Both the position numbers and the translations under genes were made by a program. A DNA stretch of 18,865 bases from Azolla caroliniana (lineage: Eukaryota > Plantae > Polypodiophyta), in contig JBHGNT010000626.1 in assembly GCA_043228905.1 (NCBI GenBank), forward strand, positions 1 to 18,865, given 5' to 3'. Below are positions 1 through 17,900 of this stretch, piece after piece. The notes below the pieces were generated by a model that searched no databases, was not told the origin of the DNA, and worked only from the letters and a program-made list of their open reading frames with translations. Every line of letters starts with the position of its first letter. The stretch's first letter is position 1.

Positions 1-101
1 AAAAAACAAATATTTATATTATGGAATAACTTAGTTTTTTGTTTAGAATAAGTAGTATTAAGTATCTAAATTGCTTTATTGCTAATAATTTTAATGTTTA
101 C

Positions 102-221
102 CTGTTTAAAAGTTCATACTGGTGTTCGGAATTGTATGCTCTGGCATAGAGGATATTTTCAAGCACAGCAGTTTGATCTAAATCAAATCTATCCGCGATA
201 GTTTTTACTCTATCCGGGCGA
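102..221 (-). CDS. DMC1: DMC1 exon 4
   Basis: Acceptor TTTACAG|221. (F)[39 protein letters not shown]; donor AG|GTAAAC at 101. Not in the ORF track. Confidence 0.9.
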
Positions 222-711
222 CTGTAAATATACAATAAGGAAAACATAATTGACTCCTGAAAAGAATGGAATTAAAATTAAAAAATGGGATTCCCAAATC
301 ACAAACTAAGTTTTGAATATAAAAATAATAAAATTTAAAAAGCTAATAATTAAAATTATAAAACAGATTTTTAATCAGACTTCTGGCTCAGTAATACAAT
401 TTTTAAAATTTTACCAGCTTGTAGCTGTGCCACTACATGATTTGGAAATTGAATGTATCATGTAATTTTCTTTGTCTATTAGTTAGTCTAAACTTAGGCT
501 CGCTACAGATAACTGTCTAACTTTTTCCGGAGTCAGACACCTTAAAAAAAAATTGTGTGAATTTTTTTTTTTTTTAAATTCACTTCCATTTATAAAAAAG
601 TACAAGTATTTAGTTATTTGAATTATCTTTTAAAATCATAGCAACAAATTTTTCAGATTTTATAGAAATATATTTTAAAAATATATAATCCAATCGAGTA
701 TTTTTTTGGTA

Positions 712-784
712 GCTTGAAACATAAATCAATTGTTTAAATTTGTCGCTTAGCTAACTCAACTGCTTTTGACTTTTTGGTTAATTT
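712..784 (+). repeat. Dispersed repeat fragment in DMC1 intron 3, homologous to 1909-1981 and (inverted) 2633-2705
   Basis: Ungapped alignment with 1909-1981 gives 55/73 identities by hand count, including GCTTGAAA, TCAATTGTTT, CGCTTAGC and GTTAATTT. Confidence 0.7.
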
Positions 785-873
785 CATATGATCATTTTAA
801 ATATTTGATGTAACTTTTCTGACTTTAACTGTGACAAATAAAATAACTTATACAAATAATTATTAAAGGATAC

Positions 874-1041
874 AAGGTGTGTTCGGTATCAATAAACATA
901 ACTTTTCCTCCAATATACCCATTAGATCCTGGCATTTGAGCTGTGACACATAAAGTGTGCGAAATCTGTGTTTTTCCTGTTCGAAACTCGCCAAAAACTT
1001 CAATTATTGACATAGATTCTAGACCTCCTCCTAGCAAATTA
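874..1041 (-). CDS. DMC1: DMC1 exon 3 (Walker A)
   Basis: Follows a 62-nt intron (1103-1042). [55 protein letters not shown]; donor TT|GTATCC at 873. Confidence 0.92.
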
Positions 1042-1103
1042 CTAACAGACAAGTCATAATTAATAAGACATTTATGAATAATTTTTTTCCCATAACAACA
1101 TAC

Positions 1104-1255
1104 TCCAAATTACGACTCCCAGTGCTAATCTTGAATATTTATTAAAAAGCAGTTAGTCATAGAGACTTTGCAACATGCGTCTTTAATTTGTTCTACCTTC
1201 TTGTCAGTAAATCCTTTAATGCCTAATAGTTTTTTACGGGTACACATTTGGACAC
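1104..1255 (-). CDS. DMC1: DMC1 exon 2, frameshifted
   Basis: Acceptor TTTAG|1255. Reads [37 protein letters not shown], then only 4 nt (1142-1139), then [12 protein letters not shown] in another frame. Donor GA|GTATGT at 1103. Confidence 0.85.
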
Positions 1256-1396
1256 CTAAAATTACTTTTATTAGTAGTTGTGAAGCTTATAAATTGTTTT
1301 GAATATCAGCTGTGCATCTACAAACTACATGTTAATAAAAACTTTTGTGTTTCTTTTTATAATAGTATTGGCTTTTACTTGATGAAAATCCGTTAA

Positions 1397-1564
1397 AATT
1401 ATTTAAATCAATAAGACAATGAGTTTAAGATTTTCACAAAAAAGTAAACATTATATTAAAAATGTGACATGTTTCGAAGAAGTTACTGTGTTAACCAAAT
1501 ATGTCACATTTTTGAAATAATGTTTATTATTTTGCGAAAATCTTAACTCATTATTTAAATAATT
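1397..1564. repeat. MITE-like small foldback in DMC1 intron 1 (left palindrome arm)
   Basis: AATTATTTAAAT..ATGAGTTTAAGATTTTCACAAAA..AAAAATGTGACAT (1397-1470) is inverted in ATGTCACATTTTT..TTTTGCGAAAATCTTAACTCATTATTTAAATAATT (1501-1564). Confidence 0.7.
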
Positions 1565-1599
1565 ACTTTTTTGTTTAATGTCAACTTAAGTTCGCGTAC

Positions 1600-1825
1600 C
1601 TTTTATAGTATTTATTCCAAATTTCTTCATAGCTTTTATATCTTCTGGGGCAATATTTTGTTCAACCAACACGTCTATATCCAAGAACACCATATCTTCC
1701 TCTTCGATGTTTCCGATAGAACCTTCTTCAGTTCTACATTCTTCTTCGGTCACCGTTCTGCAATCTTCCTCAGTTCTAGAACCAGTCAAGGCCGCTAGAT
1801 CGGGTTTTTGAAGCATTTCGGTCAT
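1600..1825 (-). CDS. DMC1: DMC1 coding exon 1 (ATG at 1825), with acidic N-terminal extension
   Basis: MTEMLQKP...EEEDMVFLDIDVLVEQNIAPEDIKAMKKFGINTIK-G; donor G|GTACGC at 1599. An acceptor-like polypyrimidine tract plus TAG at 1861-1859 suggests an upstream UTR exon. Confidence 0.85.
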
Positions 1826-2379
1826 TTTATTTGAGATTGAAGATATGCCGTGCAAAATCTATTTAAGACGAAAAAAAATCTAAAACTCCTAAAGCAGTTT
1901 TTGAGATGGCTTGAAATGTTAGTCAATTGTTTGAATTTGGCGCTTAGCCTGCTCGATTGCTTACCACTCCTCAGTTAATTTTAATGGTCCAACCCCAACC
2001 ATCGAAAATGGTCCCGGTTAATGATAACCAAAAAAGTATGACTTATTGAAACGGTAAAATAATTTAGCGAAAACCATTTATTATTTATGATAAGGTATAC
2101 GGTAGTTCCTTAATTGAAAATTAAAATCATTAGCAAAAAATACCAAAGTAATGTTAAGGTTACAAATATCAGAAAACGCCGCGACAAAAAACGCGTGCAT
2201 AAAAGCAGCCTAAATCCTTTATGATCAATTTTTCCAGAAATAAGAAATTAGTGAAAAACAGTACTATATGGGTAATCTAACTATAATGTCCGATGATTTA
2301 TTCTCATTCAATCTTCGTTAGTTAAATTTAGGTAAACGTTTAATAGTATAAATCAGTAAATCTACTGGAAAATTAGATC

Positions 2380-2390
2380 TGGTAACACTG
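2380..2390 (+). promoter_or_regulatory. Candidate core-promoter element (Ohler motif 1 / M1BP-like) in the palindrome spacer
   Basis: TGGTAACACTG matches YGGTCACACTR at 10/11 positions and lies upstream of both DMC1 exon 1 copies. Confidence 0.35.
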
Positions 2391-2756
2391 CGAATATTTC
2401 TGCTTTTAATAGATTGGCAGCTCTTTTGGCTGCATAATTTTTCTGATATTTGTAACCTTAACATTACTTTGGTCTTTTTTGCTAATGATTTTAATTTTCA
2501 ACTAAGGAACTACCGTATGCCTTAGCATAAATAATAAATGGTTTTCGCTAAATTATTTTACCGTTTCAATAAGTCGTACTTTTTTGGTTATCATTAACCG
2601 AGACATTTTCGATGGTTGGAGTTTGACCATTAAAATTAACTGAGGAGTTTTACGCATTCGAGTAGGCTAAGCGCCAAATTCAAACAATTAACTAACATTT
2701 CAAGCCATCTCAAAAACTGCTTTTAGGAGTTTTAGATTTTTTTTCGTTTTTAATAG

Positions 2757-3011
2757 ATTTTGCCCGACATTTCTTTAAATAAAATAACCGAAATGATTCA
2801 AAAACCCGATATTGCGGCCGTGACTCGTTCTAGAACTGAGGAAGATTGCAGAACGGTGACCGAAGAAGAATGTAGAACTGAAGAAGGATCTATTGGAAAC
2901 ATCGAAGAGGAAGATATGGTGTTCTTGGATATAGACGTGTTGGTTGAACAAAATATTGCCCCAGAAGATATAAAACCTATGAAGACATTTTGAATAAATA
3001 CTATATAAAAG
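2757..3011 (+). pseudogene. DMC1: Inverted, dead duplicate of DMC1 exon 1
   Basis: Same peptide as exon 1 (RTEEDCRTVTEEECRTEEGSIGNIEEEDMVFLDIDVLVEQNIAPEDIK). Lesions: ATG->ATA start loss, GGA->TGA at 2991-2993, a 2-nt insertion before the retained donor G|GTACGC, and a 6-nt deletion upstream. No exon 2 copy follows. Confidence 0.92.
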
Positions 3012-3046
3012 GTACGCGAACTTAAGTTGAAATTAAACAAAAAAGT

Positions 3047-3215
3047 AATTATTTAAATAATGAGTTTAAGATTTTCACAAAAAAATAATAAACATTATAT
3101 TAAATATGTGACATATTTGATGAACATAGTAACTTCTTCGAAACATGTCACATTTTTAATATATTTATTTTTTTGTGAAAATCTAAAACTCATTGTTTTA
3201 TTGATTTAAATAATT
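3047..3215. repeat. Copy of the MITE-like foldback in the right palindrome arm
   Basis: Same nested inverted repeat, carried along in the duplication. Confidence 0.7.
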
Positions 3216-4368
3216 TTAACGGATTTTCATCAAGTCAAAGACAATACTATTATACCACAAGATGGATCTGGTGGAGATCAAGACATAGAGAGCATGTAAA
3301 AATCATTTGGCACCTTTGAAAGAGATTGGGTATTCCCACTTTGGGATTTTTCTTGATCATTTCAAAATTACATTAATTTTTTGAAAAGTTATATGGGTGG
3401 CACAACATGGTTTAGAGCCAGACGGTCCATGATCATCTTCAAAATGGACTGACAAATTGCCTTATAGCAGTCCATAAAACAAAGAACAAAAACCAACTGC
3501 AAAAAATTACATTTTTGATCCAACTGTTAATTGAATGGGCTTGCCATAATAAAAACTGACACCAGAGAGATATATATTATTGTGTCCTAAACTAATATCA
3601 ACGATTCCTTGACACTCCTGAACAAAGGTCTCTTTCATTTGTTCCCATGCTGGTCTGGTTTTTACTTTATAGTACCATGTTAACACCATATAACTACCTC
3701 ATGCCGACACGATTCCTTTTCTCTAATAATAAATTCTGATTTGTTAATGTAAATCACCAATATGGATATCAAAAATTTAATATACTTAAAGCTATGTCTA
3801 AAAATGGCGTGGAATAAAACAAATAATTTAAAAAACGTCTAATTATATTTATTTAATGTTAAAAAGGTGTCGGGGACTGTACAAGGGGACGCGGTACAAA
3901 TAACGAAACTCGATATAATTAAAAACATATTGCTAAATACTTAATATACACGCTAAATTACTAAAAAATACACAACCTAATTTTTTCATATTAAAAACAA
4001 AGCTTAGCTTATTCTTAATATAAAAAAAAATACAATATTTGGCTATCAGTTTATACTATCAATGTTGAAAATACAACTGTTTAAAGGTTACCACAAGGGG
4101 TAATAGTTTATTTATAATATACTACCTAATCTAACATAAAATTGTTTTTCATTCGGACATTTTGACGAAATTGAAGTCTTTGATAAAGTCAAATTTAACT
4201 AATTAAAAATATATGTTGAATTGACCTTTTGGCGATACAATTTTCAACAGTATTATAACTGGTTAATTACAAAATTAGTCCGACGCGCTATCTACCGATA
4301 ACGGTAGAAATCACAAAGCTGACGTGAAGTACTCAGCGAAGCAATAATTCCAATGTCGGATTCAACGA

Positions 4369-4725
4369 TTTGAATTTTGGCCAACCAAACATATATTTGA
4401 GAAAATTTATCCAACGACATCCTACGACCGGTTTTGAACTCTATCAGTTCTCACCATGCAAGCTAGTCAAAATTCCCAGATGTTAAAGTTTTGTTGGGAT
4501 CAAATTAGATGAAATATCTCAGTTTACCAAACCGATATATTTAAATTATTCCGCACAAGCATGGAGCACAACATTCCTAGTGTTTACAACACATTCTTTG
4601 CCAACAAAATTATAGAAATTTTTGAGATATTTATCCTTTGACTAGCTGATGCAGTTCGAAACCGGTCGAAAGATGTCGTTGAATGAATTCTCCCAACAAT
4701 ATGTTTTGTTTACCAAACTGCAAAT
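4369..4725. mobile_element. Inverted pair of a decayed hammerhead-bearing repeat (Penelope pseudo-LTR-like or retrozyme-like)
   Basis: 4369-4471 aligns to the reverse complement of ~4637-4725 (CAACGACATC, CGACCGGTTT, GAACT, GCTAGTCAAA). Contains GAAACCGGTC and the GAAC/GTTC stem. Confidence 0.65.
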
Positions 4726-5794
4726 ATTTGATTAATTATATAATTAATTCATATTTTAGACAAATATACACATATTTTTTGCCATGGGTTATAGTGTTTT
4801 TTGTGTATTCCTTTTATATTTAATTTTAAAACATATTGATAGTTTGGGAGCTATACATTGGCACCAACTTTTATAAATATTTTTAAACAGAGTATTATAA
4901 TGTATTTAATTTACTAAAACCTGACAATAGTATATATGGTTTAGAAAACCTTTAGGACTGCATTGCTTGAGATATATTTAAAAAAACTCTTCCAAAAAAA
5001 TGGGTGTATTGCATGTATGGCAAATAGTTTTTCTTAGATTTCAATGCACATGGACCAACATATCTATACTAAATTGGATTATTTAAAATGTGACTAACAA
5101 TATTTTTAGCATTTCAAAAAATATTTACATGTACATGTTCAATATTCACCAGCATGTATATATTAAAACCATTATTATAATTTTGACCTATTAATACTAT
5201 ACTATAGTGGCCCTTTGTGCTTTAGAAATGTGCACATTTGTTTTAGGAAACTAATATACTTTTTTCGTGCCTCTAATTAGGTAACAAAACAGAAGTAACT
5301 TGCTATTGTACAATGAACTGAGGCCGAGGCAAAAATGGTAAGGGAAATTTCTCAGGAAAAGAGCATAGAGCATACTTTATTATCATAGTATGGAGGATAT
5401 GTGGTCCAAACCTAACGCAAATTAGGTAGCACTGTCAGGTGATTCAGTCAGTTGGGTCAATTTTAAATTTACAGTCATTAAGTAAGGAATGTTTAAAAGC
5501 ATTTATTTTAAAATGTTAACTTTTAAAACACATACATATTAATCATTCCCAAATGATCTGTCTCGAAATGAGAAATTATATAGACATTTCACAGATAGAA
5601 ATATTTCACTTTACACCATTAAAATTCTATAGAACACAGTATTTCAAAGTCAGTGTCAGAAATATTAGTCATTTACCTAAAATATGTACACAATATCAAT
5701 AATCCCTTAAAATCGACCCAAATAAAAACTGGACTCTTGTAAACCTTAACTCAAAACATCTCTATCTAGCCATTTTTACAATATGGAAGATGCA

Positions 5795-5944
5795 TTACCG
5801 AAACCGATAACTGTTCTTATGGAAATTGTTTTTGTGATGAAAGTTCCTTTTATGTCGATTGCCATGGTAAAAATGCTTGTTGTAATGATGGTTACCGCCG
5901 CTTGAACCGTTTGTTTGAGTCCAGTTCTTCGTGTTATGGAACTC
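5795..5944 (-). CDS. USP36: USP36 terminal coding exon
   Basis: Acceptor TTTTTGTTCCAG|5944. [52 protein letters not shown] at 5797-5795, phase 0. Candidate AATAAA signals downstream at 5507-5502 and 5381-5376. Confidence 0.82.
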   Translation of the reverse strand, partial: EFHNTKNWTQTNGSSGGNHHYNKHFYHGNRHKRNFHHKNNFHKNSYRFR

Positions 5945-8900
5945 CTGGAACAAAAAAATTTATAAATACAATTTAGTTAAATACAAAATAGTTACAATTG
6001 AATGTGATTGGGTGACATGATATTGGTTTAACTAATGTTCATTTGTAACCCCATTTTCTTGATATTTTATTCAATAGTTCTATCATATTATTAAGCTCTT
6101 CTGAATCATTGGAGATGACCAATCCATTTCTTTAAATATCTCTTCCAGTGCCATCCTTTAGATTTTAGGAATACAATAGACTTAATATTTATCACAATTT
6201 TTTTAAATATTATTTAATTATTTGGTAAAATATTCACAAATATTAATAGTTGAATGCTAAAATTTTTCAGATGAAACAAAGATGTATGTGAAGACTTGTA
6301 GTAACTTAATTATTGAATAATTATGTCTAATATTTATGCTTACCCTAAAGAGTTAAATATATAATGTAAATTTAGAATCGTTTAGCTTATAAAATATTAA
6401 ATTCAGAAAACTACCGATTAATACCAACCAAACTGGTTAAGACTTAAGATACTCACAGCAATAAAAAATAAATATTTTTATCAATACATGGATTTTATAA
6501 TTTAAATATTCATAATCATGTTGACTAATTATATATTTCTTGTTTAATAAGTAAATTACATATAAAAAAACAATTATTTTTAATTTTAAGCTTAAAAGTA
6601 AGATCCGACCTTTCTCCTTGTCAGACCCCTCTTTTTACGTTTATTTTGGACGTTATGTTTTTGTTGATTGTATCATGCATGTATACATTGCTATTAGCGC
6701 AATAAATATCCGACTTTGGTCATAAATTTAAACATTTTTTTTAATTTTGCGGGGCTTAAAAGAATGGTTATAATAGAATCAATTATCAAAAAGATAATAA
6801 TAATTAATAATAAATGCAACGAAATTTATTTGAGCTGTTCATTTTAAGTAATATTTTTATGTCAAAATTGAAATTTATACTTTTATAATTAAATCTATTA
6901 AAAAAACATAACTTTTAATATTAAGTATAGATAGTGGACCTAAAATAGATCTCTGCGGAACACCAAATCCAATATCTCCACAAGCAGAGTCTGCCATTGA
7001 GTCTGACACCTTGACGCCTATTCCTAGATATCCACGAAAAAAACCACAAGAGACCGTATTTAACCCAATATAATGCAACTTAGCACATAGCAAGTTATGG
7101 TCCAACAAATAAAAGGCCTTTGAGTGGTCCAAAGACACCGAAATAACACTTATATTTCTATCTAACATTGTAACTATGTTGTCAATGAGGTTTAACAAGA
7201 CTGTTGCTGTACTATGGCCTGATCTGAACGCCGATTGATGCACTGGAAGTAATTTGTGCCAGTTGAGTAGTCAATGACTACTTAACTGAAACATCGAGCC
7301 CTGAGAAGACATTTAACTGCTTCAGGCCCTTCCAAAAGTCCCTCGATTTCTCCAGATAAGCAGCCTTTTATCGACGAATGGAGATTAGCGCGAAGTTACG
7401 CAATCTTTTATATTTCTCTATTTTCAGGAGTTTTGTTGTCCTTATATCTAATGTATTGTCTATCTCGCTCCCGCATTAAAGCTTTTAGAGCTGGCGTAAG
7501 TCAGGGTGCTGGAGGCATGTTCACTCTCACCGTCCTAAAGGGAGCATGGACCTCAAATTACTGCATTAAATCAAACATTGAAAATTGAACTTTATCTTCA
7601 ATATTTTGCATATAGTAAATTTCATTCCACAGAATTACGGACAAGTCATCATAAAACGCCACATTATCAAAATGAAATTCCTGAAGGTTACATATCTCTG
7701 ATGCCCTCTTGTTCCTGGTAAATTTGTGTTACAAAATGTCAATCTGTGATTACCCATATTATTAGCATGACATGTACCGGCTGACAAACCACTATCTGCA
7801 TTACTCGCATATATATTATCAAGAAGAGTAGAACATCTAGCAGTAACTCGAGTAGGCTCATTGATTACGTGTGACAATCCATAAGAATCAAACACCTCTG
7901 TCAAAGGATTCGACACATCTCCCAATAACAGGACAACATTTATGTCTCCCAAAATAAGAATGTGGTCAGAAATAGGCAATATATCCGACAGGAAACCATT
8001 AAGGGCTTGAGCACATATTATAATTATTCTTTTTTCTATAAATAATACAAACTATAATTGCAACCCTGCAATAACTTTCACTTTAATTCACATGTTTTTA
8101 AAACCATCAATTCTCTCTTGCACATAAAACATTTCACACTGATACATCTTCTTCAAATATATATCAACACCTCCGCCTCTACCTCCAACACGATCGGAAA
8201 CAGCAACAACACCATAATCACCCCTCACAATCATATTTACCAATTCTTAAAAAATTGATTTCAAATTCAAATGTGCCATCCCAAATGCAAGAGAATTATT
8301 AGCATTTATAATGTTAGTTATAGGTCTTAGGAACTACGATTTACAGAAATAATTAGTTTTTGAACTTTGAAAACGAATTTCCCACTGCAAACAAGGACAG
8401 TCAATTTAAGGATGTATGGTTGCTGACAACTGATTCATTTTTCCAGTTACTAATTTTAGAGCAATACACACACTTCTTTTCTTGGGATTTACAGTCTTTA
8501 TATGAACACATACGCTTCAATTTAGTCTTGGCAAAGTGAGCAAAACTCATGCAGTTAAAACACCGGAGAACACTCACATGATCAAATACTGGGCACCTTG
8601 ACCATCCTATCCTGACCCGTTTCAAAAAGGTATCATGATAATTCGGATCATATATGATCTATATTTTTATACTTATTGACTTCTTAATTACTTTGATGTC
8701 CATATTTTCCGCATCCAATTCATTTGATTTCACAACTCTATTAACAATAAAATCATCTGAGGCTTCCATGCTATCATGGGCGCTAATGTTCACATTCTTA
8801 ATTTTAGGTTTCTTTGGTCAAGGTCAACACTGTTCCTCTAGTCTGGACGGAAACTTAGTTATATTAAAGGATACCAGTTGGTTGACCTTTTTTTAAATCT

Positions 8901-11900
8901 CCAGCTTTGTAAGAAAACTTCTTTGCTGTTTGTTGGCCTGACAATAACAACAACCTCCGATCCACTTAAAGGTTTAACTCTTTTAGCAACATCAGCATAG
9001 TTGTCCTTATGCCCATAATCACTGATATTTCCAACAATCTGACATGCTTTTAAATCATTCATAATTTTGTTCTTTTCATTTATAACCAATCTCCTCTTTA
9101 GAACCAAGAAGCTCCCTAAGCAGTTCAATTTCTTTTTAAAATGTTATTATTAATATAGACAAACTCACCTGTACAGGATTGTATCCCGGATTGGATTTTC
9201 CATTTCCATAACTAGAGCTAACTTTTGGATGTTTAACCCTTCCTTGATCAATATTGCTGTCATTCATACTTCTTTTTCTTTCCTCTCTGCGTTCTTGAGC
9301 AACTTCTTTATCCATTTGTGACCTGTAAACAAATTGAAACAATAGAATTCACCTCTAATGTTATAGTATCAAACTTACCTATTGCCGTTCCAAGTGCTAA
9401 CAGGCTGACCATAACCTGAATGAGACATTTTTAATAGCTCGCTGACTACGCTTCCACTGGATATTTCAATATTTTTCTTTAATAGTTCTAGGTGTCACGT
9501 CTGTCGACGATGTTACTTGCCATTCACCAGCGGTGGCTTTTGTTGAAACCCTGAAGGAGTTTTTAAGTATTTTACTGATATACATAACTTTATTAAAACA
9601 AAAACGTTCTCGATTAACTACATATTTCATTTTAACCCATCTTTATTTTTATCAGCCATGTAAAAATGTGCCCTTGCGCATGACTATAAGGCTTATTAAA
9701 TGAATACTTTACACATCAAACCATATAAGTATATTTCGGATACCTAAAACCAAAACTGTGAGGAGTAAAGAAAAATATGTTTTAAGCCTATTGTTTGTTA
9801 ATCTACATAATAAAAAATCAATTTTTATACATAACATAAATTATACTATAACTTTTTGAACTGAACGTATGTACTTAGTATATTTAAACAAACATTACAT
9901 GTGGCAAACACAATTTTGTGTAATTGTAATTAAGAGATTAAAAAGATCATGACCAAATCTTGCAAATATTTTTTTTTAGAAGATATATCATAAATCTAAT
10001 TTTCTTCTAATTTGCAATCACTTATCTAGAACTGAAAACATTTGATATATGTTGTTGCCAGTAGAAAAGAAAACTCACGTCTATACTCGTCAATTTGTTA
10101 AAAAAGTATATTCTTAAAAACTGTCTCAATGCCTTGAACGATAAAGTGTTTCTTTACAAATAAAAAAATATACCCTTAGTAATATACAAAATGAAATTGA
10201 TTTTCAATTAGTAATGTCAAACTTTTTATCATCCATAATTTGTATCATTGTAAACGAAATTAAGACTTAAATGGTGGATATTTTTCGGGTAGTTAGGCCG
10301 TGCTCTAGTAAGAATATGACTTCAGTAAAAGAGGTATTTCGGACTGACATTGTCTTTATTAAATAAGTTTTTCCACGACGTTTCGATTAGTAAAATATCT
10401 CTAATCGTTATCAAGTGTTAAGATAAACTAAAGTTCTTAAAGCTACGTTACGCTATTTATAGTCACGATGTGGGAAGCCACGCCCCCTTATGTTCCTATT
10501 GGCCAATTTCTTTCCAATAGCGGGCGCCACACGCTGGATATCTCAACGCTTGGATGACTAAAAACCCCGTCACCCTGTGCGATGTAGACTGCTTCTTTAA
10601 ATTTCCGTTTTCGTCAGATTTCTTCTTTGTGGAGAATCTTGGCTTCGGACCAATGAATATTATGTCCGTTAGTCCATGCATGCTCTGCCAGACCCGATCT
10701 TGATGTTTCTTCCATCCTTGTAAATTTCTGGTGTTCCTGAACTCTAACCTCCAGCGGTCTTTTGGTTTCACCTATGTAGGAATCCCCACACTCACACGGA
10801 ATTTGGTAGATGCAGTTTTTCTTGTCATTTTGCCCTTGTCCTGGTTTTGTTTTACAAAGCAAACTTCTAAGAGTTTGCTTTGATGTAAAAGCCGTCTTAA
10901 TATTCTTAGAAAAGTAGACCTGTATCAAGCTACTATACTTCTGGTCTACTGTCAAGTAGAAATATAAAACTTACTTCTTTCTATCACCTATACCAAGTAC
11001 TTTTCACAAACAAACCTTTATAAAAACATTTCCACTCACCTATTATTATCCGAATGATTAGAGTCCTCGCTTCCACTGGTATCTCCAGTCTCGTAGGGCA
11101 CCAAACTCTTCGATGGGGAAATAGCGGTCTTTGTAACGGTCCCAATCACCTCAGGACTACTTAAACTTGACACGCTAGTCGAGATATTGGAACTACTGCT
11201 TGGCGACGCGTCCGGACTAATGTCCGGTTCCTCATTGGCAGTTGAACTGTCCGCCTCTTTAGTAGGCGGCGAATCCGGCGTGGTCTTGTGGTCCTCCTCT
11301 TCGCTGGATTCCGTGCTAGATTCGTCCGTGACTTCGGGCGATTGAGAGGAGCTAGTTACGATCTTTTCCTTGCCATTGGTCACGGATGAAGTGGACGGAA
11401 CACCACCCGGAGGTAGTTCAGGACCATAAACCTTGGTGCTGGTAAAACCAATACCTAGCGGTTTGGCGGGACTGGAAATTAACGGTTTTGGGGCGGGATT
11501 TAGTTGCTTGGAGGCGGGACTCTGCGATTTTGTGAAAGAAGTTGGACTTTTCGTAGCGTTGGACGAACCCGGAGTTTCCGCGGAGGAAAAAGTGGGGCTT
11601 TTGCTGTTGCTAGAGGTGGTATTAACAGAGTCGGTACTCGACGGCTCTGTTATGGTACTGGGCAGTTTAGATTTCAGAGTTTGGACGGATTTTTGAATAT
11701 GAGGCGCTGATTCCAGCTCATAGAGCATTATGTAGGCGTTTGTGCTAAACATTGTTTGCAGAGATATTGGTCTAACCTAAAATATAGATATATTATAATT
11801 TTACAAAACCAAAAGTTCTGTCAAAATGTATGCTGATTACATTTTATTTAATATATCAGCTGATGTTAAGTATAAATTTAAATATAGTTAGTAAAACTGC

Positions 11901-14900
11901 CTTAAAGAGGATGGCTGGTCTAAAGGAATGGTATTAACCGAAATTCTATGTGTTGGTTTCTACTTTAAGAAACTAAGGCTTTCTAAATGTTAGACTTAAA
12001 TATAAACATTGATAAAATTAGTTCTCTTTATATGAAAATCCATATTTCTTCTTGTTAAGTACGAAAAAATCCGCCCCTTTATGGGGAGAAATTCTGTAGC
12101 CTATTCAGTATTCTCATACTTTACTTGAACAGAAAAAAAATAGTGTTCTTTGTGCTAATTTTTATTAAACTTGATTGTGTTTTCAGCTAATTGTCAGATT
12201 CCTAATAAATATTATTTATAGAGATTTAATGGATCCTCAATTTGCAATGTAAAAGAGTATGAAAAAGTGGTCACACTGAGGTTAGATAACAGTTTTAAAT
12301 ACAAAATATGATTGACAATAAAATATATTATTGGTGTAACTTACCATACTGTCGTCAAACTGATAAAAATTTTCCGATGGAGCCTGAGCTACTGCTGTGT
12401 AGTGACCACAGCTCACTGTGGGACCCATGTGGGTAACCAGAGCGACGAGGCGGTAAATCAAAGGCACTGTAGACCTAAATTACACACTTTCATGAGCTAT
12501 TTTTATTATAAATTTAAAAGAGTATAATTGCAGGTGCCCATTAAATTATAAAATGGCTTGGGTGTTGTTAATTTTTTTAAGACAAATAAGCGCTGTTTTG
12601 ATTTTTTTACATTTACAATTTGAAGAAATGGAATGGCAACCTTAAGTACGAGTAGTTGTCAAGAGAGATAGTAGTTTAAGACCGGTGAATTGGACATGAG
12701 ACAATTTATGTTAAATGAAAGAATTTTTAGCACTACATTAAAAATGAGCTTTATATTGGTTAAAACACCATTCAAACATTATTTCGAACCATTCAATAAA
12801 AGAGTTTTTATATCTTCCTACGCTGCAAATTTTAGCAGACCTTGGTCCTTTCGATTATAACTTATTTTTTTCAAGAACCCATGACATATCTGAGCTCTAC
12901 TCCTTTATAAATAAGTCATCTCTTATATGCCTTATGTTTTATAACATAGATGGCCCACATTTCCTAGAACGTTTTTTATGTAAACTTGGCACATACATTA
13001 AATTAAATTCTACATTAATATTCAATAACAAATTGCACCACGTAACTTTGCTAAATTAAACCTATTAACAGTTATTTTATAAAACTGTATACTAAACATG
13101 AAAAATTGAGGTTAAGGGCCCAAATACGTACGATAGTTCCTAAACTATTGTAGAAACGCCATGTTACGTAATTAACTTGCCACTAAGAAAAATACCACAA
13201 TTCGATTATCACAAATAAGCCATTAAGAAAAGCTAAGCAGCTGGGCCAGATTTTAGGAACAAGATTTGCAACTGGGCCATACAAAAGATAAAGTCTATAA
13301 CATATTCAAAATACGCAAATCGGTGCGCGTATGTGTACACTAAAAGAAAAAAATGCACCTCCTTAGCAGGTCACAAGTAGTTATAATATACTTATTTGTG
13401 TTTGCAATCCTTATATTCTATCTTGAAATTTTTTTTACGCGTCTGAATGCAAATTCCCAATCCAAAAATGTTTCATTTCTTGCAGTATACTGCTGTAAAT
13501 TTTTGACACCCTATTACAAATATTAAAAAAATATGTCATGATATTTATTTTTTGGGGCCTGTGTAATAAAATATTTTGTGCTGTGTTTAATTGAATAAAT
13601 TAATTTGATAAATGAACAGTTTACCTTTGCCGCGCATATCTCGTAAGGTCCATTCTTTGCCTGAAGGCAACGTGTTTGGTAATTTTATTATTGCTGACGG
13701 AAAAACGTTTTAGTTGAATGCACAGCACCATTGGCGCTCGTTCCAATGAAAACTGTTTAGTAGCTGGAACCTAGAATTAAATTGCTAAATTATTTTTTAA
13801 ACCCAAAACATCCTGGAGGAAAATATTAAATCTTAATTAAGTTAAGACTTATGTTTAACTTACCACTAGCTAAAGTAAAATAAAAGGTCAAAAAAGCACT
13901 TAATTCTCCCAAAAATAGTAAATAATCACCAAAATTTAAATTCCATTTTAATGTAAAATTGTACATCTCGCTATCCTATTAAAGCAAACGACCCTAAATT
14001 AGTAATTGTTAACCCAAAAATTGTAAATAATCCTCAATTATTAAAAATTTTGTCGACAATCCGCTCTATAATGAAGACCACTAATAAGGCGAATGCATTT
14101 GCGTTGTAATCCAAATAGTTTTTTTGTGTGGCAAGAATGACCGCAGGCTAACAGCATATAATAAATAGTGGAAATAGCCATAATATGCTGTTAGAACGGT
14201 ATTACGAGAAGTATTCTTTACGATCCATTATTAAAAAGAGGTAATTAGACAACTTTGGATTTACTCACAATATGACCACGACAAACCTGGATCCATGTAT
14301 GCTCCCAAAAATTTAACCTCGGTGGCACAACCAACCAGAATTGGGTGATGAAGTTCAGTTTTTTTTTAGTGAAAAGTTTATTTTTTTGAGATTTAAAGTG
14401 ATTAAGGGAAATTCTATTTGCGAGAAACTACTACTGCAATCTTTGCCTCTTATGGATAACTTTGAAAGAATGTAGTATCATCAGTTTTGGCCCTAGTGAG
14501 CTGAGACAAGGTTGTAAATATATATAAGAAATAAAGTTGGACCCTACAAAGAGCCCTGGGGCAGTTCAAACATCAGGTGTTGCTGAGATAGTTTATTTAT
14601 GGTACTAGACATACTGTTTACGTTCTGAAAGATAGGATTTTACTAGGGTAACAGAATCATCATGAAAATTATAGAGCTACTACTACTTTTCAAAGAGAAT
14701 CTCATGTGTTACACAGTCAAATGCCTTGGTAAGGTCTAAAAATGAGGCATAGGAGTCTAAAAAAATTTCGAAGCCATCCAGGGTACCCTCAGTTAGACAG
14801 TTTATTGCTGGACTTGTGGATTTGTGTTGTCTAAAGTCAAATTGGCTAAATGTAAATAAATGATTTGCCTTAAAGTGTTGACTTATTTGATTCTTTAAAA

Positions 14901-17900
14901 TGCGCTTAAACGCATTGGATAGAACTGGCAGAAGCGATATCGGGCGAAAATTGTTGTAGTCTTTAGAATAGCCTTTGCCTTTACACAAGGAAATCACTTT
15001 AGCAATCTTAAAAATTGCTGAAAATGTGTTTGAAGAAATTGATTTGTTGATGCACTTTTATTTGGCAATATACCTATGTTTTTTGGCAATTGTAATGGTT
15101 TATTTAAATTAATTAATTTAAAAATTATCCTTTGGGAAATTTAAATAAAATGTTCTGTGGAGTTAATGCCACATAGATATTTATTAACGGTAGTGTTAAA
15201 ACAACAAAAACATCCTGCACTTGGCGCAAGTCTCAAACAACATCCAACAGAAAATTATATATTTTGTGATTTTGACAAAATAATCTACCTATTTTGAAAA
15301 AATATAGTAATCCATCATTAGGTGTTATTGTTATATCTTAAAAAAGTTGAGGAGGGCATATATTTTGAAATTTGCTGCAAAATTAATTGGTTTAAGTTTT
15401 TAAAAATATCCCTTACCTTTTTCTGGCACGCCTCGCACTGATAACTCTCATCATCTAATTTCTCTCTGCTAAAATACAACTCCATGGCTTCGTCAATGGT
15501 TTGAGCTTTCCTTATATCTAAAAGAAGGTCTTGAAAATGCTGAAACGTCGTGCTCACGTGACCACATCGAAGGCATCGAACCGCCGAACGTAGGTAACCG
15601 CCCAAAATTTGATTAAGAGGAGTTGTTTCCTGGAGAACAAATAATGTAAATATTGTATTTTTCTTTTTGTCACTAACAATTTTTTAATAGTATTTTATGA
15701 TTTATTTTAATTTAAAATATTAATGACCACAAAAACTAAACCACAATGAATAACAAAGGAAGCTTAAGATATATCTAAATGTTGGTAAATCAATCATATG
15801 TTTAAGCAATACCATCCATTGACGTCCTATGACCAGTTTCAAATTATATCAGCTGTCATCAGATAAGCTAGTTAAGAATGACTAGCACTTGAAATTCTCA
15901 TTACTTAAATAGAATTTGTTAGCATGAAGCAAAATAATGATACGGGAGAAAATCGCAGGGCTAATGCGCCCGGCAACTTTTTCAAATTTAAATCAAAAGT
16001 TGGCTCAAAAATCGACAGATTGCACCTGAGTCACCTACGCTTCGCGCATAACAACTGAATACAACATCGAGGAGATTATGTCACCCAAACACATTCAATT
16101 AACACTATCTAACGAAAAAAAATGTCAGTTTAAATCATTAATGTAGAGACCACACCAGACGATGATACCGTATCTGAGAATGGACTTATTTAAAGATTTA
16201 TACAAATAATTAAAAACTTTGTATTAACAATTTTTCATACTTCATACAATTTGTGTATAAAACTGTGTAGTTGCAGATAATGTATTTATTTCACCTGTAC
16301 ATTCAATATTTTTTTTTAGCATAAGCATCCTTAGTGAGGCCACACCTGGAATATTGTTCTTCCGTGTGGTCTCCCTCTTACAATGTACATATTCAGGCTA
16401 TTTAAAACGTTCAGCATAAGTTCTTAAGATACATTGCATTTAAGAAACAGAGAGGAGTTGATGACATAATTTATGCTGAACTTGAGAACTTACTGCAAAT
16501 AACTACCCTTCAAGTTCGGCGTATGCACAGGGATCTTACGATGTTTTATAATTTGTTGCACTCTCATTCCCATGGCCCTGTACTCACAAGTAAAATAGGA
16601 GTACATACTCCCTCTCGGCGAACTAGACTAAACCATTCTTTCCATGTAAAGCCCCATCGTACAAACTATGGCCAAAATTCTTTTTTGGCCAGATCAGCCA
16701 GACTAGCAAATAACTTTTCAGATCAAATAGATTTCTTTCAAAATTGCAAAACATTTAAAAAACAACTTATAGACTGCACATGAAGGGCCAATGTTATCTG
16801 TGGGGGCTATATCTCTCCTGTTGGTATTGGGTTGTTAATTGTTGAAATAGTTACTCCCAGTGATTTTGTTTTTTTCATTTTAATTGTTAATTATTTTCAT
16901 TTTAATTAATTATTTTTACATAATTTATAAATTAGTTTGTTATGCATAGGTTAGGTTTAATTTCTGTTGTTCTTCCTTGTTTTATTTGTAAATTCTTTAT
17001 ATTGGGCAATAGCCCGTTGATAAATAAATAAATAAATAAATACCCAGATACCTTATTTAATTAGTCCTCATTATTTCTTTATAATAGAAGTGCCTGTCTG
17101 GGCCTTTTCCCCAACATGTGTCGTCAGCAAATGACACAATACTGTGATCAGTAACTGTATTTAATAAAGAATTTAAATACATAATAAAAATAAGTGGTCT
17201 CGGGACTATTCCTTGCTGCACTCTTTCCCGATAAATAGTTTCTGAAAAGCTTCCAAACGCTACACCTAATGCCGTACCGCTTAAGAACATTTAAAAGAGA
17301 TGTGTAGAAAACAGTACGAAAGGCCTTTGCTAATTTGAGAAGAACAGCAATGCATTTTCTATGATATTCTTAATGCTATTTACCACTTAAAAGTGCCTTG
17401 TTTGTACTTATACCCCAGCAAATTTCAAATGGATTTTGGTGTAAAATTTTGTTATGTAGTAGAAAATTGTTTGTTCTTGCTTTTGGACGCCATTTTAATA
17501 CCAATATTTATGAAGTATTTTTTACAAAAGCTTGTCATTTCTTTGTCATCATAAAATTAATATCCATTATTATTGGTTATAAGTATGTCGTACTTACCTT
17601 TTTTAATATTCTCATTAGTGGCATCCTTAGTAATTTTATAAATTTTTTCATATCCTTTCCAAACTTGGATATGAGATATGAGTAATAGTCAGATTAAGTT
17701 ATTTTTATTGGTTAATTTTTAAAAACATATATTTTAAAATCAAGTACCATAAAAAAAACAACTCACCTTAACCTTAGAATCAAATTGAGTGTAATTCTTA
17801 AACCTCTGCAAATAAGACTTCTCCATGGCCTCAACCAAATACCTTAAGAACTCGTGTGCATCTTCCTGTCGACCTGGAATCAAGTTTCGACACACCAAAC

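What the first reader, a model, noticed from the sequence alone, without database searches (positions are those of the whole stretch)
1358..3254. 1.9-kb palindrome made from DMC1 exon 1: candidate hairpin-RNA / self-silencing locus for a meiotic recombinase
Seen: ~820 bp (part of intron 1, all of coding exon 1 and ~350 bp upstream) is duplicated head-to-head around a unique 262-bp spacer. Arm identity is roughly 90-95% by eye, so this looks like an aged duplication rather than a read fold-back. The duplicate stops ~100 bp short of exon 2 and has lost its ATG and gained a stop, so it cannot encode DMC1. Established: long inverted-repeat transcripts in insects (Drosophila hpRNAs) are diced into endo-siRNAs, are often testis-biased and repress genes of related sequence. 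Inference: any transcript crossing both arms folds into ~800 bp of dsRNA covering the DMC1 start codon and both exon 1 splice sites. USP36 is transcribed toward the palindrome and its stop codon is only ~2.5 kb away, so read-through, or a DMC1 5' UTR exon upstream of 3254, could supply such a transcript. This could silence this DMC1 in cis and any intact paralog or allele in trans, for example as a route to sex-specific or lineage-wide loss of meiotic recombination.
Basis: partly seen in the sequence, partly recalled or inferred. Interest (0 to 1): 0.82.

Follow-up and report, generated by a model that had tools for sequence, protein, structure and literature searches.

The report
Transposon-anchored palindrome beside broken weevil DMC1
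A weevil's meiotic recombinase gene DMC1 has its first coding exon copied head-to-head into a 1.9-kb palindrome that ends exactly at a small transposon's tip and was likely made by it, and the gene itself is knocked out by a separate 29-base deletion, so this is likely a decaying locus rather than a working self-silencing switch.

Summary
The palindrome is real: arms 1358-2176 and 2439-3254, 94.7% identical without gaps, 262-nt spacer; one public run's contigs hold the spacer with both junctions and arm-specific letters. The host is likely a weevil. (1) Both outer ends sit on the terminus of a high-copy MITE-like repeat in DMC1 intron 1, so a transposon end likely made the duplication. (2) The 'parent' DMC1 is itself broken: exon 2 is 29 nt short, loses 11 codons kept in 20 of 20 beetle orthologues, including half of the FxxA polymerisation motif, and stops at 1127-1125. 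The right arm drifts neutrally (dN/dS about 1) and the arms show no sign of selection for pairing. No RNA data exist here, so a hairpin RNA is untested. Its geometry has a precedent (D. simulans ballchen hpRNA), but it needs a transcript across both arms, which nothing here shows. Best reading: a neutral, transposon-anchored inverted duplication at a DMC1 copy that later became null. The residual interest is a recent DMC1 inactivation in a beetle.

The parts
1358..2176 (.). left (original) arm: MITE-like repeat, 35 nt of intron 1, DMC1 first coding exon, 351 nt upstream
2177..2438 (.). 262-nt unique spacer; possible promoter (inferred; one Motif-1-like site with 1 mismatch at 2380-2390 on +, not above chance)
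2439..3254 (.). right (duplicated) arm, inverted; decaying neutrally
1355..1565 (.). high-copy MITE-like repeat in DMC1 intron 1: one intact end at about 1355-1358, internal hairpin 1397-1564, far end apparently about 45 nt short
   Evidence: summed contig depth 330-1180 over 1338-1523 against 2-7 beside it; 37 X1 contigs run into unrelated flanks before 1354-1355; self-symmetry
3047..3254 (.). copy of the same repeat at the outer end of the right arm; shares four private letters with the left copy against the family majority
1600..1825 (-). DMC1 first coding exon, open, canonical GT donor
2784..3011 (+). dead copy of exon 1: ATG>ATA, codon-4 ATG kept, TGA at 2991-2993, 2-nt insertion before the donor
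1104..1255 (-). DMC1 exon 2, 152 nt against 181 expected; lesion at about 1139-1142, frameshift, TAG at 1127-1125
874..1041 (-). DMC1 exon 3 (Walker A), open, 85-93% identical to the top beetle DMC1 hits
102..221 (-). DMC1 exon 4, open; the gene continues beyond the window's left end
5795..5947 (-). USP36 last coding exon and stop; AATAAA on the minus strand at 5502 and 5376

Best explanation
The palindrome is a real local inverted duplication of the 5' part of a weevil DMC1, likely made by repair or aberrant transposition at the one intact end of a MITE-like repeat in intron 1 and likely without function, and the DMC1 copy beside it is a null through a separate, likely later, 29-nt deletion in exon 2. 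Order of events: (1) the repeat inserts in intron 1 and loses its far end (shown: the truncation is in both arms); (2) DNA attached to the intact end, running through exon 1 and 351 nt upstream, is copied in inverted orientation 262 nt further on (end coincidence shown; one-ended transposition, gap repair or template switching inferred and not separable here); (3) the copy decays neutrally to 5.5% divergence (shown); (4) the original exons stay constrained for a while (weakly inferred); (5) exon 2 loses 29 nt, which removes the alanine of the FxxA polymerisation motif and stops translation before the ATPase domain (shown in the assembly, not checked in reads).
For: Outer ends lie within 3 nt of the repeat's terminus: depth jumps from 0 to 365-1183 at 1338-1399 and 37 X1 contigs leave into unrelated flanks before 1354-1355; other copies end at 3252-3254; the chance of such a coincidence is 0.4-2%. 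Both arms share letters at 1392, 1395, 1409 and 1442 against the family majority, so this is one insertion copied, not two. Divergence is even along the arms (MITE 5.9%, exon 4.9%, upstream 7.7% and 3.4%); the longest perfect run is not unusual (p=0.21; best 160-nt window p=0.35); G-U-tolerated mismatches are 9 and 8 of 43 for the two strands. Exon 1 left against right: 8 non-synonymous and 2 synonymous codon changes, ratio 1.0. Exon 2 is 152 nt; 20 of 20 beetle DMC1 keep a 17-residue F..FK(L) span that the window lacks; the lost stretch corresponds to human DMC1 T87-M97 and FxxA is essential for filaments (PMC12409439, passages). DMC1 has been lost repeatedly in insects (PMC10403939, PMC11906883, passages).
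Against: No target-site duplication at the flanks tested, and the repeat's superfamily and transposase are not identified. The inner junction is not a transposon end, unlike maize composite insertions. The 29-nt deletion is not covered by any laid contig (depth 0 over 1090-1337), so it rests on the assembly. Evidence for the order of duplication and deletion is weak (p=0.053, 0.13 and 0.07-0.17). No RNA data test 'without function'. An intact DMC1 allele or copy elsewhere cannot be excluded, since no genome is held.
Confidence: 0.62

Rival explanations
1. The locus works as a hairpin-RNA gene: a minus-strand transcript (DMC1 pre-mRNA from a 5' UTR exon right of 3254, or USP36 read-through) crosses both arms and is diced; the siRNAs would repress DMC1 alleles or copies and the MITE family, and the silenced DMC1 then decayed.
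For: Long stable duplex if transcribed. A predicted acceptor at about 1858 implies an upstream exon whose place is unknown. [quoted passage not shown] Inverted duplications made by alternative transposition give siRNAs from flanking promoters in maize (10.1101/2020.01.07.897926, passages).
Against: No sign of selection on pairing. Two AATAAA lie 290 and 420 nt after the USP36 stop, though the four in the interval equal chance (3.8). A promoter in the spacer or arms gives two outward transcripts that are not complementary. Host DMC1 shows 5 of 91 departures at conserved columns, two shared with unnamed relatives, against 5.8 expected on top of the baseline if it had been neutral since the duplication.
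Confidence: 0.15
2. The rearrangement itself disabled DMC1: a staggered-break micro-inversion of the spacer, or insertion of the right arm, cut exon 1 off from its promoter or 5' UTR exon, and the exon 2 deletion followed.
For: The structure a-s-a' fits a staggered-break inversion (inference). The one Motif-1-like site in the spacer points away from DMC1. The amount of decay is statistically compatible with neutrality since the duplication (P=0.48 for 5 or fewer departures).
Against: The motif match is not above chance (2 hits, 12 of 200 shuffles reach 2; the perfect hit is in a USP36 intron). All 5 polarisable amino-acid changes in exon 1 are in the right arm. The splice sites of the left copy are canonical.
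Confidence: 0.1
3. The duplication arose by fold-back or replication template switching unrelated to transposon ends; the coincidence with the repeat's terminus is chance or reflects later loss of the outer part.
For: No target-site duplication. A short inverted hexamer lies just inside the spacer on both sides.
Against: Coincidence probability 0.4-2%.
Confidence: 0.09
4. Palindrome or deletion is an assembly artefact.
For: No laid piece spans the whole palindrome, and none covers exon 2.
Against: 43 arm differences with arm-specific contigs at 0 mismatches and a spacer-bridging contig. A 29-nt loss is not a homopolymer error (general knowledge).
Confidence: 0.04

Closest known systems
Inverted duplications and composite insertions from alternative transposition of maize Ac/fAc (p1-ww-id1, id4) and Mu killer (10.1101/2020.01.07.897926; abstract and 12 passages seen)
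   Same: A terminally deleted element in a gene's intron; an inverted duplication bounded by a transposon end; potential dsRNA if a flanking promoter reads through.
   Different: Here 0.8 kb, only the outer ends are transposon ends, no target-site duplication found, three quarters of the arm is host sequence, no transcript or siRNA shown.
De novo hpRNAs of Drosophila simulans: ballchen partial 5' duplication, hp58 (PMC10317233; sections 11, 12 and 12 passages seen)
   Same: Inverted repeat built from an exon of a neighbouring gene, with some transposon sequence.
   Different: Those are defined by Dcr-2-dependent siRNAs and primary transcripts; none is shown here, the parent gene is already null, and the host is a beetle.
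Beetle DMC1/LIM15 orthologues (Cylas, Anoplophora, Diabrotica, Gonioctena and others)
   Same: Exon 3 is 85-93% identical to the top beetle hits; Walker A intact; same length of longest contig as USP36 in 4 of 14 species with both listed (4 of 8 with contigs above 5 Mb), which suggests old linkage.
   Different: 29-nt frameshift deletion in exon 2, absent in 20 of 20 compared.
DMC1 losses in Drosophila, Anopheles, most Hymenoptera, aphids (PMC10403939, PMC11906883; passages seen)
   Same: An insect lineage apparently tolerating loss of DMC1.
   Different: Those are old, complete losses; this copy is nearly intact with one lesion in 664 coding nt seen, and whether the species lacks a working copy is unknown.

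Membership tests
hpRNA (endo-siRNA) locus | Long inverted repeat able to form a duplex | tested here: met
hpRNA (endo-siRNA) locus | One primary transcript across both arms | not testable with these tools
   no RNA holder listed
hpRNA (endo-siRNA) locus | Dcr-2-dependent ~21-nt RNAs from the arms | not testable with these tools
   no small-RNA data
hpRNA (endo-siRNA) locus | An expressed complementary target that is derepressed without RNAi | tested here: inconclusive
   the cis DMC1 is frameshifted; other copies cannot be searched
hpRNA (endo-siRNA) locus | Selection to keep pairing (supporting, not required) | tested here: not met
   no excess perfect runs, no G-U bias
MITE | Short, non-coding, high copy, sharp terminus | tested here: met
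MITE | Terminal inverted repeats | tested here: inconclusive
   symmetry 1397-1564; contigs turn at 1476; the far end is truncated in this copy and no full copy was read
MITE | Target-site duplication and a cognate transposase | not testable with these tools
   no genome held
Composite insertion by alternative transposition | Duplication bounded by a transposon end | tested here: met
   outer ends
Composite insertion by alternative transposition | Transposon ends on both borders with a target-site duplication | tested here: not met
   inner junction is single-copy sequence; no duplication of 2-10 nt at the flanks tested
DMC1 orthologue | Best matches are DMC1; Rad51 domain | tested here: met
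   (PF08423, 9.4e-24)
Functional DMC1 | Open frame into the ATPase domain and intact FxxA motif | tested here: not met

The most novel reading that the evidence does not exclude
A transposon-made inverted duplication turned the 5' end of DMC1 into a hairpin-RNA gene that dominantly silences every DMC1 allele, and the gene has begun to decay behind it: a weevil caught losing its meiotic recombinase through its own RNAi, a route that would switch off all copies at once in a polyploid or parthenogenetic lineage.
Probability: 0.07. Interest if true: 0.8.

Novelty: new member of a known kind. Interest (0 to 1): 0.33.

Why it matters
As a transposon-anchored inverted duplication it is ordinary. What carries over is a nearly intact, recently broken DMC1 in a weevil. 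DMC1 loss is recorded for flies, most wasps and aphids as old events whose effects are unclear (PMC11906883). A young null would allow one to ask what comes first: loss of need (parthenogenesis, achiasmy, RAD51-only meiosis) or loss of the gene. Four literature searches listed no paper on DMC1 loss in weevils; the library lacks most subscription journals. If small RNAs were found, the locus would be a beetle hpRNA aimed at a core meiotic gene.

Tried and rejected
Whole-genome search: no genome held, so no look for other DMC1 copies, other meiotic genes or full repeat copies. Sequencing runs: 3 listed, all DNA contigs of one sample; no RNA holder listed, which is no evidence on expression. No laid contig covers 1090-1337; holes prove nothing. 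'DMC1 is absent from true weevils': no Curculionidae name among the 120 of 871 rows shown or the 12 rows, but other beetles present in the USP36 list (Tribolium, Aethina, Leptinotarsa, Coccinella) are also missing there, and unnamed close relatives have DMC1 exons; not claimed. Tc1 transposase remnant at 3255-3900, a guess from memory: 0 Pfam families in 6 of 6 frames; dropped. Rfam on 1-7000: 2 weak miRNA matches far below threshold, on the repeat's hairpin; chance. Metagenome scan: 68 loci, none matching USP36 and only weak matches (E 2e-4 or worse) to exon 1. Rescue of the frameshift by a 37-nt GT-AG segment in exon 2 would restore the frame but remove 22 residues including FxxA, and is below usual insect intron size (general knowledge); rejected. 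The DMC1 tree was poorly resolved and not used for placement. Earlier findings: 6 of 7 look-ups returned nothing; the seventh returned 8 notes on plant transposons that do not bear on this locus. Supplements and figures of the papers were not read; the ballchen locus details may lie there.

Full report
Observation. A local alignment gives arms 1358-2176 and 2439-3254 over 826 columns: 766 matches, 43 mismatches, 17 gap columns, or 94.7% without gaps, 5.5% after Jukes-Cantor correction. The spacer is 262 nt. Of 3 runs laid, X1 has contigs with left-arm letters, with right-arm letters, across the spacer with 30 nt of each arm, and across the right outer junction, all without other letters. X1 may be the source sample and no listed piece spans the whole, but a fold-back artefact would not give two diverged arms.

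Organism and genes. The USP36 exon's best named matches are Anthonomus, Sitophilus, Euwallacea and Hypothenemus, so the host is likely a true weevil. USP36 runs on the minus strand and stops at 5797-5795. Exon 3 of the left gene matches beetle DMC1 at 85-93% in the top beetle rows. The DMC1 exons are 1825-1600, 1255-1104, 1041-874 and 221-102, with canonical splice sites; the gene leaves the window. DMC1 and USP36 have equal longest-contig lengths in 4 of 14 beetles listed in both tables, and 4 of 8 with contigs above 5 Mb. That suggests old linkage and an orthologous locus, but it is indirect.

First missed feature: the parent gene is broken. Exon 2 is 152 nt, where the orthologues imply 181. 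After the codons for ...TNCFL four bases stand where 33 should; the frame shifts and meets TAG at 1127-1125, while [11 protein letters not shown] continues in another frame. All 20 of 20 beetle orthologues aligned keep a 17-residue span from the F of FxTA to FK(L). The lost stretch maps to human DMC1 T87-M97 and takes the alanine of the FxxA motif, which is essential for filament formation (PMC12409439, three passages). The product would end before the ATPase domain. No laid contig covers this place, so the lesion rests on the assembly, and it may be one haplotype only.

Second missed feature: the outer ends are a transposon end. Summed contig depth in X1 rises from 0 to 365-1183 at 1338-1399, stays at 330-430 to 1523 and falls to 4-7 by 1555; 14 and 23 contigs run into unrelated flanks before 1354 and 1355 (agreement 0.45-0.46). 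On the right, other copies end at 3252-3254. The repeat is self-symmetric over 1397-1564 and appears to lack about 45 nt of its far end, in both arms. I call it MITE-like; the superfamily is not typed. The arms share letters at 1392, 1395, 1409 and 1442 against the family majority, so one insertion was copied. A breakpoint within 3 nt of this end has a chance of 0.4-2%. No target-site duplication of 2-10 nt was found at the flanks tested, and the inner junction is single-copy, so this is not a textbook composite insertion. One-ended transposition, gap repair running past the missing end, and template switching at the terminus all fit, and I cannot separate them.

Evolution of the arms. Divergence is even (MITE 12/205, intron 1/35, exon 11/225, upstream 13/169 and 6/175); the longest perfect run (81) and the cleanest 160-nt window are not unusual (p=0.21, 0.35); G-U-tolerated mismatches are 9 and 8 of 43 for the two strands. 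In exon 1, 8 codon changes are non-synonymous and 2 synonymous, a ratio of 1.0. The copy keeps the codon-4 ATG but has lost the first ATG, gained a TGA at codon 70 and a 2-nt insertion. For order of events the hints are weak. Three lesions fall in the copy's 225 nt against one in 664 coding nt of the original (p=0.053). All five amino-acid changes I could polarise by eye with relatives P0245 and P0246 are on the right, against at least 5 of 12 neutral MITE changes on the left (p=0.13). The original departs at 5 of 91 conserved columns, where the 20 orthologues show 0-9; two of the five are shared with unnamed relatives, and 5.8 would be expected if it had been neutral since the duplication (P=0.07-0.17 for 2-3, 0.48 for 5). 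Together they lean towards DMC1 working for a time beside the palindrome.

The hairpin hypothesis. A transcript across both arms would fold strongly; that is true of any such repeat. The geometry is head-to-head around the likely promoter region, and a start site in the spacer or the arms gives outward transcripts that are not complementary. A duplex needs a 5' UTR exon right of 3254 or USP36 read-through over 2.5 kb. A predicted acceptor at about 1858 leaves the first option open. Two AATAAA lie 290 and 420 nt past the USP36 stop, but their number in the interval equals chance (4 against 3.8). No RNA run was listed, so the matter is untested. [quoted passage not shown] So the idea is plausible and would be a new member of a known class, not a new class.

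Context. DMC1 is absent in Drosophila and most Hymenoptera assayed (PMC10403939, passages) and in aphids and Anopheles (PMC11906883, passages). Searches listed no paper on weevil DMC1. That some weevils are apomictic polyploids is recalled knowledge; one search listed no genome paper on them, and nothing here shows this species' mode of reproduction. I do not claim family-wide loss, because the protein lists also omit other beetles and unnamed relatives have DMC1 exons.

Verdict. Real structure, likely made at a transposon end and likely neutral (0.62), beside a DMC1 copy that is null in this assembly. Hairpin silencing 0.15, promoter disruption by the rearrangement 0.10, transposon-independent origin 0.09, artefact 0.04. 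New member of a known kind; interest 0.33, mostly for the young DMC1 null.

Noticed in passing
window 701-794 and 1888-1981 (copy at 2624-2716): An 84-94-nt stretch upstream of DMC1 exon 1 is 72-74% like a stretch in DMC1 intron 3, in the same orientation; likely an old repeat.
   Followed up: partly
window about 1715-1780 (minus): DMC1 exon 1 holds a short internal repeat (RTEEDCRT..TEEECRTEE) that is about 6 residues longer than in the unnamed relative P0245; present in both arms, so older than the palindrome.
   Followed up: no
window 4260-4740: A second high-copy repeat with inverted arms 4362-4447 and 4646-4731; related sequence at 15778-15875. An X1 contig of 5,038 nt leaves the window at 4592, possibly another haplotype or an insertion.
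   Followed up: no
window 3255-3900: Mostly single-copy sequence with a short shared repeat at 3316-3358; no Pfam match in six frames.
   Followed up: partly
window 6875-9150, 10614-10970, 14683-15057, 16406-17290: Decayed frames in USP36 introns that look by eye like non-LTR retrotransposon fragments (reverse transcriptase, endonuclease, GIY-YIG); labels recalled, not tested.
   Followed up: no
proteins P0020, P0249-P0255: An unnamed relative's DMC1 exon 3 has A in place of the conserved F just before the Walker A RTGKT and shares KTQISHT with the window; close relatives may have a faster-evolving DMC1.
   Followed up: no
window 2380-2390 and 12268-12278: Motif-1-like promoter words, one in the spacer (1 mismatch) and one perfect in a USP36 intron; not above chance.
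   Followed up: partly
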